Source of the DNA: Escherichia coli
GTDB lineage: Bacteria > Pseudomonadota > Gammaproteobacteria > Enterobacterales > Enterobacteriaceae
Direction: 5' to 3' (one strand)
DNA: 64,000 nucleotides
Assembly: GCF_030013595.1 (NCBI RefSeq)
Contig: NZ_CP122768.1
The translations under genes and the position numbers were made by a program. The notes under the pieces are model-generated. The model was not told the origin of the DNA and ran no database searches. It saw nothing but the letters and a program-made list of their open reading frames with translations. Below, in pieces: positions 35,907 to 39,110 of the stretch. The number at the start of each line of letters is the position of its first letter. The first letter of the stretch is position 1.

Positions 35907-35982
35907 TGGTGGGTCGTGCAGGATTCGAACCTGCGACCAATTGATTAAAAGTCAACTGCTCTACCAACTGAGCTAACGACCC
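35907..35982 (-). tRNA. lysV: tRNA-Lys (anticodon UUU)
   Basis: Reverse complement reads GGGTCGTTAGCTCAGTTGGTAGAGCAGTTGACTTTTAATCAATTGGTCGCAGGTTCGAATCCTGCACGACCCACCA, 76 nt with encoded CCA. Confidence 0.95.
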
Positions 35983-35986
35983 GAAG

Positions 35987-36062
35987 TGGTGGGTGATGAC
36001 GGGATCGAACCGCCGACCCCCTCCTTGTAAGGGAGGTGCTCTCCCAGCTGAGCTAATCACCC
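35987..36062 (-). tRNA. tRNA-Val (anticodon UAC)
   Basis: Reverse complement reads GGGTGATTAGCTCAGCTGGGAGAGCACCTCCCTTACAAGGAGGGGGTCGGCGGTTCGATCCCGTCATCACCCACCA, 76 nt. Confidence 0.95.
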
Positions 36063-36108
36063 ACTTCGGTACTTCACATTTTTACAAGAAATTTAGCTGG
36101 CGAGAAAG

Positions 36109-36184
36109 TGGTGGGTGATGACGGGATCGAACCGCCGACCCCCTCCTTGTAAGGGAGGTGCTCTCCCAGCTGAGCTAATCACCC
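36109..36184 (-). tRNA. tRNA-Val (anticodon UAC), second identical copy
   Basis: Identical 76-nt sequence to 35987-36062, separated by a 46-bp spacer. Confidence 0.95.
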
Positions 36185-36442: not shown

Positions 36443-37858
36443 ATGAAAATCAAAACTCGCTTCGCGCCAAGCCCAACAGGCTATCTGCACGTTGGCGGCG
36501 CGCGTACTGCTCTTTACTCCTGGCTTTTTGCACGTAACCACGGCGGTGAGTTCGTGCTGCGTATTGAAGACACCGATCTTGAGCGTTCCACGCCGGAAGC
36601 TATCGAAGCCATTATGGATGGCATGAACTGGCTGAGCCTGGAGTGGGATGAAGGTCCGTACTACCAGACCAAACGTTTTGATCGCTACAACGCGGTGATC
36701 GATCAGATGCTGGAAGAGGGCACAGCTTATAAATGTTATTGCTCTAAAGAGCGCCTGGAAGCGCTGCGCGAAGAGCAAATGGCGAAAGGTGAGAAGCCGC
36801 GTTATGACGGTCGCTGCCGCCACAGCCATGAGCATCATGCTGATGATGAACCGTGCGTTGTACGTTTTGCTAACCCGCAGGAAGGTTCTGTTGTTTTTGA
36901 CGATCAGATCCGTGGCCCGATTGAGTTCAGCAACCAGGAGCTGGATGATCTGATTATCCGTCGTACCGATGGTTCTCCAACCTATAACTTCTGTGTGGTG
37001 GTTGACGACTGGGATATGGAAATCACCCACGTTATCCGTGGCGAAGACCATATCAACAACACGCCACGCCAGATCAACATTCTTAAAGCACTGAAAGCGC
37101 CGGTACCGGTTTACGCGCACGTTTCTATGATCAACGGCGATGACGGCAAAAAACTGTCCAAACGTCACGGGGCGGTCAGCGTAATGCAGTATCGTGATGA
37201 CGGTTATTTGCCAGAAGCACTGCTGAACTATCTGGTGCGTCTGGGCTGGTCCCACGGCGATCAGGAAATCTTCACTCGTGAAGAGATGATCAAATACTTC
37301 ACCCTGAATGCCGTCAGCAAATCTGCCAGTGCGTTCAACACCGACAAGCTGCTGTGGCTGAACCATCACTACATTAACGCGCTGCCGCCGGAGTATGTTG
37401 CTACTCACTTACAGTGGCACATTGAGCAGGAAAATATCGATACCCGTAACGGCCCGCAGCTGGCTGATCTGGTGAAACTGCTGGGCGAACGCTGCAAGAC
37501 GCTGAAAGAGATGGCACAGAGCTGCCGTTATTTCTACGAAGATTTTGCTGAGTTCGATGCCGACGCCGCGAAAAAACATCTGCGTCCGGTAGCGCGTCAG
37601 CCGCTGGAAGTAGTTCGTGACAAACTGGCCGCGATTACTGACTGGACCGCTGAAAACGTTCATCACGCTATTCAGGCGACGGCGGATGAGCTGGAAGTGG
37701 GCATGGGTAAAGTTGGTATGCCGCTGCGTGTCGCCGTAACCGGTGCGGGGCAGTCTCCGGCGCTGGATGTTACCGTTCACGCAATCGGTAAGACCCGCAG
37801 TATCGAGCGTATCAACAAAGCGCTGGCTTTTATTGCTGAACGCGAAAATCAGCAGTAA
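36443..37858 (+). CDS. gltX: glutamyl-tRNA synthetase
   Basis: 471-aa ORF; class I motifs [12 protein letters not shown] (HIGH-type) and KLSKR (KMSKS-type). Confidence 0.95.
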
Positions 37859-37876
37859 TTAGCGCATAAAAGATAA

Positions 37877-37908
37877 ACGGCAGGAGAGATACCCCTGCCG
37901 TTTTTTAT
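37877..37908. terminator. intrinsic terminator after gltX (bidirectional with yfeD)
   Basis: ACGGCAGG...CCTGCCGT stem followed by TTTTTTATTT. Confidence 0.7.
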
Positions 37909-38301
37909 TTATTCTGATTCATCTATGTCGAGACGAGCAAGGAAATGACGAATTCCTTCGCGTGACAAAAATTGCGCAACTTTTTCCTGCTCACTGTGAG
38001 TCATATTGTCTATTGCGCTGATGATTTGCCGATAAGCAGGGGTGCGAATACCCGGTGCGTATTCGGCAAGGGGTTCTTCGGCTTCCAGAAGCATCGGTGT
38101 GTTATGGAAGGCTGGCGTGTTCTGAATAAACTCGCAAACTTGCGTATCGACCAGAATAAGTCTGGCACGACCGCCTTTCACGCCGGGAAATTTTTCCGTT
38201 TTCCAGCCTTTTTCTCTGATCCAACGGTTAACAGTTTGTTTAGCCACACCGAGGCATTCAGCCAGTTCTTCGGTGGTCATTTTATTGCGTAATCTTTTCA
38301 T
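37909..38301 (-). CDS. yfeD: putative DNA-binding protein YfeD
   Basis: 130-aa ORF (MKRLRNKMTTEELAECLGVAKQTVNRWIREKGW...); paralog of adjacent yfeC. Confidence 0.88.
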   Translation of the reverse strand: MKRLRNKMTTEELAECLGVAKQTVNRWIREKGWKTEKFPGVKGGRARLILVDTQVCEFIQNTPAFHNTPMLLEAEEPLAEYAPGIRTPAYRQIISAIDNMTHSEQEKVAQFLSREGIRHFLARLDIDESE

Positions 38302-38302
38302 A

Positions 38303-38647
38303 TTATTTGCTATCGCGAATCCCTAAGCGTTGTAACAATCCGATAATCCCTTCCCGCAGAAGCAAGGATGTAAACTGTTTTTGTTCAACTGGCGTCATCT
38401 CTTTCGCCAGTGTCACCAGCAATACTTCAAGCGGCGCATCACCAGAAAGGGCAGGCGCTTCTCCCTGACCTTCTGGACGTTCAGCATTGCGAATATATTC
38501 ACGAACCTGTTCATTGACGTGAACCAGTCGGGCTTTGCCACCCTGGACGCCAGGTTTTGGTGACGTTGTCCAGCCTTCCTTGCGTACCCATTTATTAATG
38601 GTCTGGCGGCTATAGCCGGTCAGTCTGGCAAGTTCATCTGGCGTCAT
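38303..38647 (-). CDS. yfeC: putative DNA-binding protein YfeC
   Basis: 114 aa from ATG 38645-38647 (MTPDELARLTGYSRQTINKWVRKEGW...); track ORF extends 5 codons further to 38662. Confidence 0.85.
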   Translation of the reverse strand: MTPDELARLTGYSRQTINKWVRKEGWTTSPKPGVQGGKARLVHVNEQVREYIRNAERPEGQGEAPALSGDAPLEVLLVTLAKEMTPVEQKQFTSLLLREGIIGLLQRLGIRDSK

Positions 38648-38882
38648 CCTCTCCTTGAACATAACAATTCCCTGAATGTATGTGGGTCTATTAGTAGTTC
38701 ATTTTATAACACCACTTTACAGGAAACCGTGACATGAATAACTACTGAATGCGAGCGGTTTTCCAAAATTGTTCATTTGCCTGATTTTTCAGCGATTGAA
38801 ACTACACGTTGCAATTTGCCGTTGACACATTCGGGCGGAATTCATATGATGCCGCCCGTCAACTCGACAAGCTTTACGTGAC

Positions 38883-38958
<76 letters not shown>

Positions 38959-38997
38959 AATTTTGCACCCAACAAATTTGGTACGTAAACGCATCGT

Positions 38998-39073
<76 letters not shown>

Positions 39074-39079
39074 AATTTC

Positions 39080-39110
39080 AAACCCTCGCTGTAAAGCGGG
39101 GGTTTTTTGT
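39080..39110 (+). terminator. intrinsic terminator after tRNA-Ala pair
   Basis: CCCTCGCTGTAAAGCGGGGG hairpin followed by TTTTTTG. Confidence 0.65.

What the first reader, a model, noticed from the sequence alone, without database searches (positions are those of the whole stretch)
37909..38647. Tandem paralogous small DNA-binding proteins YfeD/YfeC between gltX and a tRNA-Ala pair
The two adjacent minus-strand ORFs are clearly paralogous (compare MTTEELAECLGVAKQTVNRWIREKGWKTEKFPGVKGGRARLILVDTQV with MTPDELARLTGYSRQTINKWVRKEGWTTSPKPGVQGGKARLVHVNEQV). They have HTH-like N-termini and unknown function, and sit flanked by tRNA genes, which are classic integration sites. No integrase or other island genes are nearby, so at most this is an ancient relic or a dedicated regulator pair.
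Basis: seen in the sequence. Interest (0 to 1): 0.25.

Follow-up and report, generated by a model that had tools for sequence, protein, structure and literature searches.

The report
Known YfeC/YfeD regulator gene pair
These are the already annotated E. coli genes yfeC and yfeD, two tandem paralogs encoding small DNA-binding regulators that are core chromosomal genes rather than a mobile island; the one new point is that they look like shortened copies of the phage Mu repressor.

Summary
Window 37909-38301 (-) is yfeD and 38303-38662 (-) is yfeC. They are 37% identical (BLASTP E 2e-26), and both match Pfam PF07037 "YfeC-like" far above threshold. The pair sits between gltX and two tRNA-Ala(GGC) genes in 5,244 of 5,426 complete E. 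coli genomes and in all 80 Enterobacteriaceae species examined. Both genes are under purifying selection, have ordinary GC content, and have no integrase nearby. This is a core operon, not a tRNA-linked island.

Function is not wholly unknown. Published ChIP-exo gives 50 YfeC sites and 36 YfeD sites, YfeC acts mostly as a repressor, and yfeC mutants have extracellular-DNA and gut-colonisation phenotypes.

Both proteins are predicted to have an N-terminal winged helix-turn-helix (wHTH), a disordered linker and a C-terminal helical hairpin. Profile comparison shows collinear homology to about the first 130 of the 171-196 residues of Mu/D108-type phage repressors (E 8e-17), and the C-terminal domain alone scores E 1e-5. 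In Yersinia, Pragia, Budvicia and one unnamed Enterobacterales contig, relatives lie next to ispB and are transcribed divergently from a Ner-like gene, as c and ner are in Mu; Photorhabdus has the pair at ispB but a Tn3 insertion hides the flank. E. coli keeps only the Ner-like gene sfsB at that position.

Verdict: already known and low interest, with a modest evolutionary lead.

The parts
38303..38662 (-). yfeC coding sequence (119 aa from the conserved upstream ATG; the K-12 annotation starts at 38647, giving 114 aa). Predicted layout: winged HTH at residues ~1-55, disordered linker, C-terminal helical hairpin.
   Evidence: ORF. PF07037 E 3.6e-51. The 114-aa form is 100% identical to K-12 YfeC. 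Start-codon conservation. AlphaFold model, pLDDT 69.5.
37909..38301 (-). yfeD coding sequence (130 aa), paralog of yfeC with the same two-domain layout. Its ATG lies 1 nt after the yfeC stop codon.
37875..37903 (.). GC-rich hairpin between the convergent genes gltX and yfeD; a likely bidirectional terminator.
   Evidence: Terminator scan reports a 12-pair stem on the minus strand. The plus strand shows the same stem followed by a T run just after the gltX stop.
38703..38733 (-). Candidate yfeC promoter: extended -10 TGTTATAAA (38703-38711) and the invariant upstream box GTCACGGTTTCC (38722-38733). Inferred only, not mapped.
   Evidence: These columns are invariant or nearly invariant in the 19-genus alignment of the yfeC/tRNA-Ala spacer. 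The consensus scanner did not call a promoter here.
38822..38850 (+). Promoter of the divergent tRNA-Ala operon: TTGACA, 17 nt, TATGAT, followed by a GC-rich discriminator.
   Evidence: Promoter scan, 11 of 12 matches. Invariant across 19 genera.
38883..39073 (+). Two identical tRNA-Ala(GGC) genes (alaW and alaX of K-12), transcribed divergently from yfeC. They are neighbours of the pair, not part of it.
   Evidence: ARAGORN, Rfam, K-12 annotation.
39051..39084 (.). Approximate position of the published YfeC ChIP-exo peak that the authors assigned to 'yfeC' (NC_000913.2 2516052-2516085). It maps to the 3' end of the distal tRNA-Ala gene and its terminator, not to the yfeC promoter.
   Evidence: Dataset S4 of PMC8464067, mapped through the K-12 record using a +1978 offset between genome versions that I inferred and estimate to be good to +/-2 nt.
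37800..38099 (.). Divergent allele patch covering the 3' half of yfeD (linker plus C-terminal domain) and the terminator: 46 differences from K-12 in 300 nt, against 0-1 per 100 nt across the rest of yfeD, all of yfeC and the promoter.
   Evidence: Population split of this segment in 5,426 genomes.

Best explanation
This is the yfeC-yfeD operon, a vertically inherited core gene pair of Enterobacteriaceae. It encodes two paralogous small transcription factors of the YfeC-like family (PF07037).

Each protein has three parts:
- an N-terminal winged helix-turn-helix (wHTH) of the Mu-repressor/MuA-I-alpha/excisionase (MerR-like) class;
- a disordered acidic linker;
- a C-terminal two-helix hairpin with the motif MTxxEQ...LLxREGIxGLLxRLGI.

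Both domains are homologous, in the same order, to the N-terminal two-thirds of Mu/D108-type phage repressors. The family lacks the last ~60 residues of those repressors, which from my own knowledge is the ClpXP-sensitive regulatory tail.

Shown here or in published data:
- paralogy, family membership, fold and synteny;
- purifying selection on both genes;
- in vivo DNA binding by both proteins (published ChIP-exo);
- mostly repressive effects of YfeC (published RNA-seq).

Inferred:
- The hairpin is the oligomerisation module, so the proteins bind short palindromic sites as dimers or higher oligomers. The strongest YfeC sites carry TTCCGGAA-like cores.
- YfeC represses its own operon. yfeD rises 20-fold in a yfeC deletion.
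- YfeD has its own targets. ybaQ carries a YfeD site and falls 36-fold when yfeD is de-repressed.
- The duplication arose within Enterobacteriaceae from a single gene at the same gltX locus, as still seen in Chimaeribacter.
For: - Paralogy: E 2e-26.
- PF07037 above threshold for both proteins.
- YfeC is identical and YfeD 92% identical to K-12 b2398/b2399.
- Present in 5,244 of 5,426 E. coli genomes.
- The order tRNA-Ala, yfeC, yfeD, gltX is conserved in most of the 80 species loci; Kosakonia loci lack gltX in the flank.
- A single-copy gene sits at the same locus in Chimaeribacter.
- Neighbour-joining tree: gltX-locus clade 75%, YfeC clade 87-97%, YfeD core clade 74%.
- dN/dS is 0.04-0.2.
- YfeC N-terminus against the MuA I-alpha domain (1tns), E 0.013.
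- Family profile against Mu c, 95.8% probability, E 8e-9.
- Family profile against a four-repressor profile, 98.8%, E 7.9e-17. The C-terminal domain alone gives 81.6%, E 1.1e-5, against cross-domain controls of 1.5%.
- Published data (PMC8464067): 50 YfeC and 36 YfeD ChIP-exo sites; 16 of 20 direct YfeC targets are repressed; yfeD +4.33 log2 and ybaQ -5.16 log2 in the yfeC deletion; a YfeD site at ybaQ.
- TTCCGGAA-like cores at the mukF, fdoG, chaB-chaC and araJ sites.
Against: - Oligomerisation through the hairpin was not tested. The models are monomers, and the Mu repressor C-terminal region has no solved structure to compare with.
- Several YfeC ChIP sites lie at very highly expressed genes (rpmH, rpmB, rpsU, lpp, a tRNA gene), which can be ChIP artefacts. 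40% of the sites are intragenic.
- The peak the authors assigned to yfeC maps about 400 nt from its start, at the tRNA-Ala terminator.
- yfeD up-regulation in the yfeC deletion could be read-through from the deletion cassette rather than loss of repression.
- Matches to TTTCCGGAAA with up to 2 mismatches are not clearly enriched in the window (51 against 35 +/- 6).
- Tree support is moderate, and distances to Mu c are near saturation.
Confidence: 0.75

Rival explanations
1. A type II toxin-antitoxin pair, as RASTA-Bacteria predicted in 2007 and later papers repeated.
For: Two small adjacent co-oriented genes, one of them with an HTH, gave a high RASTA score (PMC2374986). The prediction is repeated in PMC5847654.
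Against: - The two proteins are paralogs of each other (E 2e-26), with the same HTH-plus-hairpin layout.
- Neither has a toxin-domain hit in Pfam, NCBIfam or PADLOC.
- The pair is core and syntenic rather than patchy.
- Single-copy relatives exist.
- A yfeC deletion is viable even though yfeD is then 20-fold up.
Confidence: 0.03
2. A remnant of a genomic island or prophage that integrated at the adjacent tRNA genes.
For: tRNA genes lie on both sides. The proteins are homologous to a phage repressor. GC3 is lower than in the neighbours (0.43-0.47 against 0.58).
Against: - The genes lie upstream of the tRNA-Ala promoter, not at a tRNA 3' end, and gltX separates them from the tRNA-Val/Lys cluster.
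- There is no integrase or other island gene nearby.
- Flanks are identical in 80 species and in a Yersiniaceae genus.
- Overall GC is 0.47-0.50 against 0.51 for the window.
- From my own knowledge, Mu-type phages transpose and do not use tRNA attachment sites.
Confidence: 0.03
3. Local regulators dedicated to their neighbours: the divergent tRNA-Ala(GGC) operon and/or gltX, linking tRNA supply to some signal.
For: The divergent arrangement, with a constant ~220-nt spacer and invariant blocks, is conserved in 19 genera. A YfeC ChIP-exo peak maps to the distal tRNA-Ala gene.
Against: - The invariant blocks coincide with the tRNA promoter itself.
- In Chimaeribacter a transporter gene sits between the tRNA genes and the yfeC-like gene.
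- Sister-family members lie at unrelated loci.
- The 50 and 36 ChIP sites are spread across the genome.
- tRNA genes are prone to ChIP artefacts.
Confidence: 0.1
4. Orphan chromosomal repressors that act as immunity against Mu-like transposable phages by occupying their operators.
For: Collinear homology to Mu/D108 repressors across the DNA-binding and central domains. Loss of the C-terminal tail would, from my own knowledge of Mu c, make such a repressor resistant to ClpXP-mediated induction.
Against: - From my own knowledge, E. coli K-12 carries both genes and is fully sensitive to Mu.
- Identity to Mu c is only ~19-23%.
- There is no PADLOC defence-system hit beyond a generic HTH.
- tblastn against 50,697 phage records finds no close phage relative.
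- Conservation as a core gene over long times suits a housekeeping regulatory role better.
Confidence: 0.05
5. Low-specificity, nucleoid-associated-type DNA binders with no defined regulon; the published sites would be mostly ChIP noise.
For: - Many sites are intragenic or at hyper-expressed genes.
- Gene assignments in the published table are loose (the 'chaA' site lies between chaB and chaC; the 'yfeC' site lies at a tRNA terminator).
- The motif has a modest MEME E-value of 7e-10.
- YciT has a peak within about 70 bp upstream of the YfeC/YfeD peak at the sfsB 5' end.
Against: - Signal-to-noise reaches 2057 at single sharp sites.
- Top sites share a TTCCGGAA-like palindrome.
- 20 of the 50 bound genes change expression.
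- Strong conservation of the recognition helix QT(I/V)N(K/R)W argues for specific contacts.
Confidence: 0.12

Closest known systems
E. coli K-12 YfeC (b2398) and YfeD (b2399), Pfam PF07037 'YfeC-like'
   Same: The same genes. YfeC is 100% and YfeD 92% identical, and the flanks are the same (pdeA, alaX, alaW, yfeC, yfeD, gltX, valU operon). Full-length PF07037 matches.
   Different: This strain carries the minority allele of the yfeD 3' half, which is 81% identical in nucleotides to K-12 over 193 nt. It also has two rather than three tRNA-Val genes beyond gltX.
Repressor c of transposable phages Mu, D108, SfMu and PhiR68_1
   Same: Collinear homology of the N-terminal Mu-type winged HTH and of the following helical segment. 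For example, YfeC EMTPVEQKQFTSLLLREGIIGLL aligns with D108 FLTPDEQAAAVEIIRVAGIKGLM. Profile-profile E 7.9e-17, and the C-terminal domain alone E 1.1e-5. The DNA-binding domain fold matches the solved structure 1qpm.
   Different: - YfeC and YfeD are 114-130 aa against 171-196 aa, and lack the last ~60 residues, including the conserved tail ending VKKAV.
- They are not in a prophage.
- No ner or transposase gene is adjacent in the window.
- Identity is only ~19-23%.
- Their operators are unrelated as far as known.
MuA transposase I-alpha (enhancer-binding) domain, Pfam PF02316 HTH_Tnp_Mu_1
   Same: The same winged-HTH subtype with the GW...GV.GGKA wing motif: 1tns E 0.013, PF02316 E 0.04. A Mu-type transposase N-terminus matches the family profile at E 5.5e-6.
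   Different: There is no transposase core. The PF02316 score is below its gathering threshold for the E. coli proteins.
Excisionase/MerR-like winged-HTH DNA-binding domains (mycobacteriophage Pukovnik Xis, BldC, RacA, pSK1 Par)
   Different: This is similarity of fold class only. Scores for the MerR and excisionase families are below their cut-offs, so the PGAP name 'MerR family transcriptional regulator' given to YfeD in many genomes overstates the case.
Chromosomal 'Mu DNA-binding domain' proteins next to ispB in Yersinia, Photorhabdus, Pragia and Budvicia, with the Ner-like protein SfsB/Nlp
   Same: A sister subfamily (115-133 aa, hitting both PF07037 and PF02316) with the same two-domain layout, often also present as tandem pairs.
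   Different: They lie at a different locus (mdh ... ispB), and where the flank can be read they are transcribed divergently from a Ner-like gene that is 63% identical to Mu Ner and to E. coli SfsB. E. coli has sfsB next to ispB but no c-like gene there.

Membership tests
Pfam PF07037 YfeC-like transcription regulators | Full-length match to the family HMM above the gathering score (22.9 bits) | tested here: met
   YfeD 204.4 bits over profile positions 1-122 of 122; YfeC 173.0 bits over 1-122 of 122.
Pfam PF07037 YfeC-like transcription regulators | N-terminal winged HTH plus a C-terminal helical hairpin carrying the MTxxEQ...REGIxGLLxRLGI motif | tested here: met
Pfam PF07037 YfeC-like transcription regulators | Orthology with E. 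coli K-12 b2398/b2399, shown by sequence and conserved gene order | tested here: met
   100% and 92% identity with the same neighbours. 5,244 of 5,426 genomes. 80 species loci.
Mu-type transposable-phage repressor (Mu c / D108 c) | N-terminal Mu-type winged-HTH DNA-binding domain | tested here: met
Mu-type transposable-phage repressor (Mu c / D108 c) | Central leucine-rich helical segment following the DNA-binding domain (from my own knowledge, the oligomerisation region of Mu c) | tested here: inconclusive
   Homology of this segment alone is 81.6% probability, E 1.1e-5 over 29 columns, with cross-domain controls at 1.5%. Whether it oligomerises was not testable.
Mu-type transposable-phage repressor (Mu c / D108 c) | C-terminal ~60-residue regulatory region ending in the conserved tail (...VKKAV) | tested here: not met
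   YfeC and YfeD end right after the hairpin. The alignment covers Mu c residues ~13-133 only.
Mu-type transposable-phage repressor (Mu c / D108 c) | Encoded at the left end of a transposable prophage, divergent from ner and upstream of the transposase genes | tested here: not met
   The neighbours in the window are gltX and tRNA-Ala. Compare the Mu, D108, SfMu and PhiR68_1 layouts. A divergent Ner-like partner is found only in the sister subfamily.
Type II toxin-antitoxin system | Two different proteins, one of them with a toxin fold or domain | tested here: not met
   The two proteins are paralogs. There is no toxin family hit; YdaS_toxin at E 0.0015-0.04 is below its cut-off and covers only the HTH.
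Type II toxin-antitoxin system | Growth arrest by one partner, neutralised by the other | not testable with these tools
   Indirect evidence only: the yfeC deletion strain is viable with yfeD 20-fold up.
tRNA-linked genomic island | Integrase or other mobility genes, and insertion at the 3' end of a tRNA gene | tested here: not met
   There is no integrase within +/-6 kb. The pair lies on the 5' (promoter) side of the tRNA-Ala genes.
tRNA-linked genomic island | Variable presence among strains and atypical base composition | tested here: not met
   Present in 97% of complete E. coli genomes and in all 80 species loci. GC is 0.50 and 0.47 against 0.51 for the window.
tRNA-linked genomic island | Flanking direct repeats derived from the tRNA 3' end | not tested
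   No dedicated direct-repeat search was run; only inverted repeats in 38640-38900 were listed.
MerR family (the PGAP name for YfeD in many genomes) | Match to MerR-family HMMs above their cut-offs | tested here: not met
   PF13411 MerR_1 E 0.15-0.17, 12.5 bits against a cut-off of 21.6. Only the fold class is shared.

The most novel reading that the evidence does not exclude
YfeC/YfeD and the Ner-like protein SfsB (Nlp) may be the dispersed halves of an anciently domesticated Mu-like c/ner immunity switch.

- In Yersinia, Pragia, Budvicia and an unnamed Enterobacterales contig, the c-like gene or genes and the ner-like gene still sit back to back next to ispB, as c and ner do in Mu. Frischella has the same divergent pair at another locus. 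Photorhabdus has the pair at ispB, but a Tn3 insertion hides the flank.
- In Enterobacteriaceae the c-like genes are at the gltX locus, while sfsB stays next to ispB.
- Published ChIP-exo places the strongest YfeD peak and a YfeC peak about 23-52 nt inside the sfsB reading frame. The old repressor-to-ner wiring may therefore survive across 0.8 Mb.

A second unexplored point is that E. coli carries two deeply divergent alleles of the YfeD C-terminal domain, which could alter partner choice if the hairpin mediates homo- or hetero-oligomerisation.
Probability: 0.3. Interest if true: 0.5.

Novelty: already known. Interest (0 to 1): 0.22.

Why it matters

The added value is modest:
- It removes a long-repeated toxin-antitoxin label and an inaccurate 'MerR family' name.
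- It corrects the probable yfeC start codon.
- It gives a concrete evolutionary frame, a truncated Mu-type repressor possibly paired historically with the Ner-like SfsB. That frame suggests specific, cheap experiments on two poorly understood E. coli regulators, one of which affects gut colonisation and extracellular DNA release.

If the c/ner wiring were confirmed, it would be a tidy example of a phage lysis-lysogeny switch recruited into host regulation.

Tried and rejected
- The search for related loci with the 23-sequence alignment failed because no stretch was conserved enough. The 8-sequence alignment worked, but the 80 loci kept are all Enterobacteriaceae, so the other 197 relatives were not seen.
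- tblastn of YfeC against 50,697 phage records gave no match.
- The 13 'plasmid' hits are megabase-sized or chromosome-like records carrying the same locus, not evidence of mobility.
- phmmer of YfeD against PDB sequences gave nothing.
- The BFVD viral fold search gave no hit at E <= 0.001, only generic MerR/excisionase HTH matches.
- PADLOC gave only a weak generic HTH hit, mad1.
- Rfam found only the five tRNAs.
- Biopython bootstrapping timed out. A first custom neighbour-joining run had NaN distances and was redone.
- The search for an operator in the yfeC promoter was inconclusive. TTTCCTGTAA (38717-38726, minus strand) resembles the TTCCGGAA core of the top ChIP sites, but matches with up to 2 mismatches are not clearly enriched in the window. 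Inverted repeats in the spacer coincide with the tRNA promoter.
- sfsB is not among the differentially expressed genes of the yfeC deletion, so the proposed YfeC/YfeD-to-sfsB link has binding evidence only.
- Full-text searches for a described YfeC/Mu-repressor or SfsB connection found none. This library misses most subscription-journal papers.
Full report
**Observation**

The window carries two adjacent minus-strand ORFs at 37909-38301 (130 aa) and 38303-38662 (119 aa; 114 aa from the internal ATG at 38647). gltX lies at 36443-37858 on the plus strand, convergent with them. Two identical tRNA-Ala(GGC) genes lie at 38883-38958 and 38998-39073 on the plus strand, divergent from them.

BLASTP between the two proteins gives 37% identity over 125 columns, E 2e-26. 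Both match Pfam PF07037 'YfeC-like' over the whole profile, at 204 and 173 bits against a cut-off of 22.9. One nucleotide separates the first stop codon from the second ATG. A GC-rich hairpin at 37875-37903 sits between yfeD and gltX.

**Identity**

The region matches 5,425 of 5,426 complete E. coli genomes, 5,244 of them over at least 80% of the 1.5-kb query, where it is annotated yfeD, yfeC, gltX and tRNA-Ala x2. Against K-12 MG1655, YfeC is identical and YfeD differs at 10 of 130 residues.

The 5-codon extension MFKER is probably real. The upstream ATG and a Shine-Dalgarno-like CAGG(G/A)AAT are conserved in 19 genera. The Arg codon is AGG in Escherichia and CGA elsewhere, a multi-base change that leaves the amino acid unchanged. 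PGAP also aa.

**Not an island**

A scan of one genome per species found 277 genomes with a relative. The 80 best, all Enterobacteriaceae, carry yfeC and a second paralog downstream of one to three tRNA-Ala(GGC) genes, and most of them show gltX and the valU-type tRNA cluster beyond. Kosakonia loci lack gltX in the flank.

yfeC is 68-94% identical across these species. The second gene is only 29-96% identical. One Enterobacter genome has three tandem copies, and in Atlantibacter the second copy is closer to yfeC.

Chimaeribacter (Yersiniaceae) has a single yfeC-like gene at the same locus: tRNA-Ala x2, an inserted transporter gene, the yfeC-like gene, gltX, then tRNA-Val.

Other evidence points the same way:
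- dN/dS is 0.04-0.2 for both genes, and yfeD accumulates about twice the non-synonymous change of yfeC.
- GC is 0.50 and 0.47 against 0.51 for the window.
- There is no integrase nearby.
- The genes lie on the promoter side of the tRNA-Ala operon, whose promoter TTGACA-17-TATGAT is at 38822-38850.
- YfeC has no phage match by tblastn, and the 'plasmid' matches are chromosome-like records.

The whole family is small: 189 cluster representatives at E <= 0.001 among 1.84 billion proteins.

**What is already known**

Gao et al. 2021 (PMC8464067) tagged both proteins and reported 50 YfeC and 36 YfeD ChIP-exo sites. They described a YfeC motif as TTC-rich inverted repeats, found 205 differentially expressed genes in a yfeC deletion, and counted 20 direct targets, 16 of them repressed.

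An earlier screen linked yfeC to extracellular DNA release (cited). A yfeC::kan mutant of E. coli K1 colonises the neonatal rat small intestine poorly and is less lethal (PMC5847654). Deleting yfeC in EHEC did not reduce LEE transcription (PMC11508082). The K-12 record now names YfeC a dual regulator.

**Caveats on those data**

Using a +1978 offset between NC_000913.2 and .3 (my inference from the known insertions, good to about 2 nt), the peak the authors assigned to 'yfeC' maps to the 3' end and terminator of the distal tRNA-Ala gene (window ~39051-39084), about 400 nt from the yfeC start. Several other sites lie at very highly expressed genes, and gene assignments in the table are loose.

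The strongest sites do share a TTCCGGAA-like palindrome: mukF, fdoG, chaB-chaC and araJ. A related TTTCCTGTAA lies in the conserved yfeC promoter spacer (38717-38726, minus strand), but such two-mismatch matches are not clearly enriched in the window (51 against 35 +/- 6). An operator in the yfeC promoter is therefore not established.

In the yfeC deletion, yfeD rises by 4.33 log2 (padj 5e-133) and ybaQ falls by 5.16 log2, and ybaQ carries a YfeD site with signal-to-noise 29.7. The simplest reading is that YfeC represses the operon and YfeD represses ybaQ. Read-through from the deletion cassette cannot be excluded.

**Fold**

The AlphaFold model of YfeC (8-sequence alignment, pLDDT 69.5) and the model of YfeD (37 sequences, pLDDT 81.7) agree on the layout:
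- a helix-turn-helix with a two-strand wing at residues ~1-55, with pLDDT around 90 in YfeD;
- a disordered linker;
- a two-helix hairpin, with pLDDT 91-96 in YfeD.

**Relationship to Mu repressors**

phmmer of YfeC against PDB sequences finds the MuA I-alpha domain (1tns, E 0.013) and Mu c. A 23-sequence family profile aligns with Mu c residues 16-132 at 95.8% probability, E 8e-9.

I then built a profile from Mu c, PhiR68_1, D108 c and SfMu c and compared it with a 38-sequence family profile:

| Comparison | Probability | E-value | Columns |
|---|---|---|---|
| Full length | 98.8% | 7.9e-17 | 105 |
| N-terminal domains only | 98.5% | 2.7e-15 | 56 |
| C-terminal segments only | 81.6% | 1.1e-5 | 29 |
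| Mismatched N-versus-C controls | 1.5-1.6% | ~0.03 | 17-20 |

By eye, D108 '...FLTPDEQAAAVEIIRVAGIKGLM' matches '...QLTPEERQKIISLIVRIGVRGLI' of a family member. The family ends about 60 residues before the phage repressors do, and so lacks their conserved C-terminal region and tail.

YfeC-like proteins are therefore homologs of the N-terminal two-thirds of Mu-type repressors. They are not members of that functional class, because the tail and the prophage context are absent. UniProt-derived names such as 'HTH Mu-type domain-containing protein' show that the N-terminal relationship is already annotated. I found no paper describing the C-terminal relationship.

**Sister subfamily and the Ner link**

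Weak hits from the deep search led to a sister group of 115-133-aa proteins that hit both PF07037 and PF02316. They occur in Photorhabdus, Yersinia, Serratia, Budvicia, Pragia and Frischella.

In Y. entomophaga, Y. aldovae, Pragia, Budvicia and an unnamed Enterobacterales contig, the order is argR, mdh, ner-like (minus strand), one or two c-like genes (plus strand), ispB (minus strand), rplU. Photorhabdus has the tandem pair next to ispB, with a Tn3 insertion on the other side. Frischella has a divergent ner-like/c-like pair at another locus, and one Serratia copy stands alone.

The ner-like protein is 63% identical to Mu Ner (E 2e-30) and 63% identical to E. coli SfsB. SfsB in turn is 64% identical to Mu Ner. 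In Mu, D108, SfMu and PhiR68_1, c and ner are likewise divergent neighbours. E. coli K-12 has sfsB immediately after ispB in the matching orientation, with no c-like gene there.

With the +1978 offset, the peak shared by YfeC (signal-to-noise 28.6) and YfeD (57.6, its strongest site) maps to positions +23 to +52 of the sfsB reading frame. sfsB is not among the differentially expressed genes of the yfeC deletion, though yfeD is over-expressed in that strain.

**Order of duplications**

A neighbour-joining tree on 122 columns, rooted on Mu c, gives these bootstrap supports:
- the split between gltX-locus proteins and the ispB-locus group plus Mu c, 75%;
- Chimaeribacter outside the Enterobacteriaceae clade, 68%;
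- the YfeC clade, 87-97%;
- the core YfeD clade, 74%.

The ispB-locus pairs are 35-68% identical within a genome and do not sort into two orthologous lineages. The YfeC/YfeD duplication therefore most likely arose within Enterobacteriaceae from a single gene at the gltX locus, and tandem duplication recurred independently elsewhere. Support is moderate, and the method is simple.

**Mechanism**

Shown: two paralogous Mu-type winged-HTH proteins expressed from one operon, both binding chromosomal DNA in vivo.

Inferred:
- oligomerisation through the hairpin, by homology with the central region of Mu c;
- recognition of short palindromes;
- autorepression by YfeC;
- partly distinct target sets for the two paralogs, with one shared site at sfsB.

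The recognition helix is nearly the same in the two proteins (SRQTINKWVRKEGW against AKQTVNRWIREKGW). The wing, the linker and the hairpin surface differ.

**Rivals**

- The toxin-antitoxin label fails, because the partners are paralogs with no toxin domain and a core distribution.
- The island reading fails on geometry, distribution and composition.
- A dedicated role at the neighbouring tRNA operon remains possible but weak.
- Phage immunity and non-specific DNA binding also remain possible but weak.

**Verdict**

The finding is real and correctly read, but it is already known. Interest is low. The homology to Mu-type repressors across both domains and the c-like/ner-like synteny are a modest new lead, not a new kind of system.

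Noticed in passing
window 37800-38099: The 3' half of yfeD (linker plus C-terminal hairpin) and the terminator differ from K-12 at 46 of 300 nt. The 5' 200 nt of yfeD, all of yfeC and the promoter are identical. Across 5,426 complete E. coli genomes the 241-nt segment splits into two deep classes: at least 95% identity in 2,136 genomes and 80-90% in 3,184. The K-12 type matches E. whittamii and cryptic clades (97-98%). The window type is nearest to E. albertii, at only 86.5%. This is either an imported segment or an old polymorphism.
   Followed up: partly
window 35907-36184: Only two tRNA-Val(UAC) genes precede tRNA-Lys here, whereas K-12 and strain GF60 have three (valU-valX-valY-lysV). The span from gltX to lysV is 536 nt against 656 nt. 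Copy number varies from 1 to 5 among the 80 species loci.
   Followed up: partly
window 38647-38662: The K-12 annotation starts yfeC at the internal ATG (114 aa). Cross-genus conservation of the upstream ATG, its Shine-Dalgarno-like sequence and the KER codons (AGG and CGA both encode Arg) favours the 119-aa form used by PGAP.
   Followed up: yes
L089 4546-5775; L106 2542-3747; L105 1725-3375; L104 2072-3396; L083 4525-6182; L090 4555-5363: A chromosomal module conserved in several Enterobacterales and in Frischella: a Ner-like gene (63% identical to Mu Ner) divergent from one or two small Mu-c-like genes. In most cases it lies between mdh and ispB. E. coli keeps only the Ner-like sfsB next to ispB.
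   Followed up: partly
L093 ~1433-1462 (K-12 NC_000913.3 ~3334932-3334961, inside the sfsB 5' end): The strongest published YfeD ChIP-exo peak and a YfeC peak coincide here when the coordinates are shifted by the inferred +1978 offset. The sequence contains the inverted repeat CCCGC-N11-GCGGG. sfsB does not change expression in the yfeC deletion.
   Followed up: partly
PMC8464067, Datasets S4 and S6 (K-12 genes b0483 and b2399): In the yfeC deletion, yfeD is up 4.33 log2 and ybaQ is down 5.16 log2, and ybaQ has a YfeD ChIP site. Part of the published 'YfeC regulon' may therefore be an indirect effect of YfeD over-expression.
   Followed up: partly
L049 4001-5126 (Enterobacter sp. BIGb0383): There are three tandem YfeC-like paralogs instead of two between tRNA-Ala and gltX. 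In Atlantibacter (L055, L060, L063, L068) the second gene resembles yfeC more than yfeD.
   Followed up: no
window 38748-38770 (minus-strand sense); alignment A3 columns ~128-150: Most genera have a perfect palindrome TTGCGAG-N4-5-CTCGCAA in the spacer between tRNA-Ala and yfeC. In Escherichia the left arm has decayed (TTTTGGAAAACCGCTCGCA). It could be an operator or an RNA hairpin lost in Escherichia.
   Followed up: no
window 38821-38863: The tRNA-Ala promoter is bracketed by the inverted repeat GTTGAC...GTCAAC, invariant in 19 genera. In Escherichia a GC-rich repeat CGGGCGGAAT/ATGCCGCCCG also flanks the -10 element.
   Followed up: no
annotation column (RefSeq PGAP names): Many E. coli genomes name YfeD 'MerR family transcriptional regulator', but MerR-family HMM scores are well below their cut-offs (12.5 bits against 21.6). 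The name reflects fold class only.
   Followed up: yes
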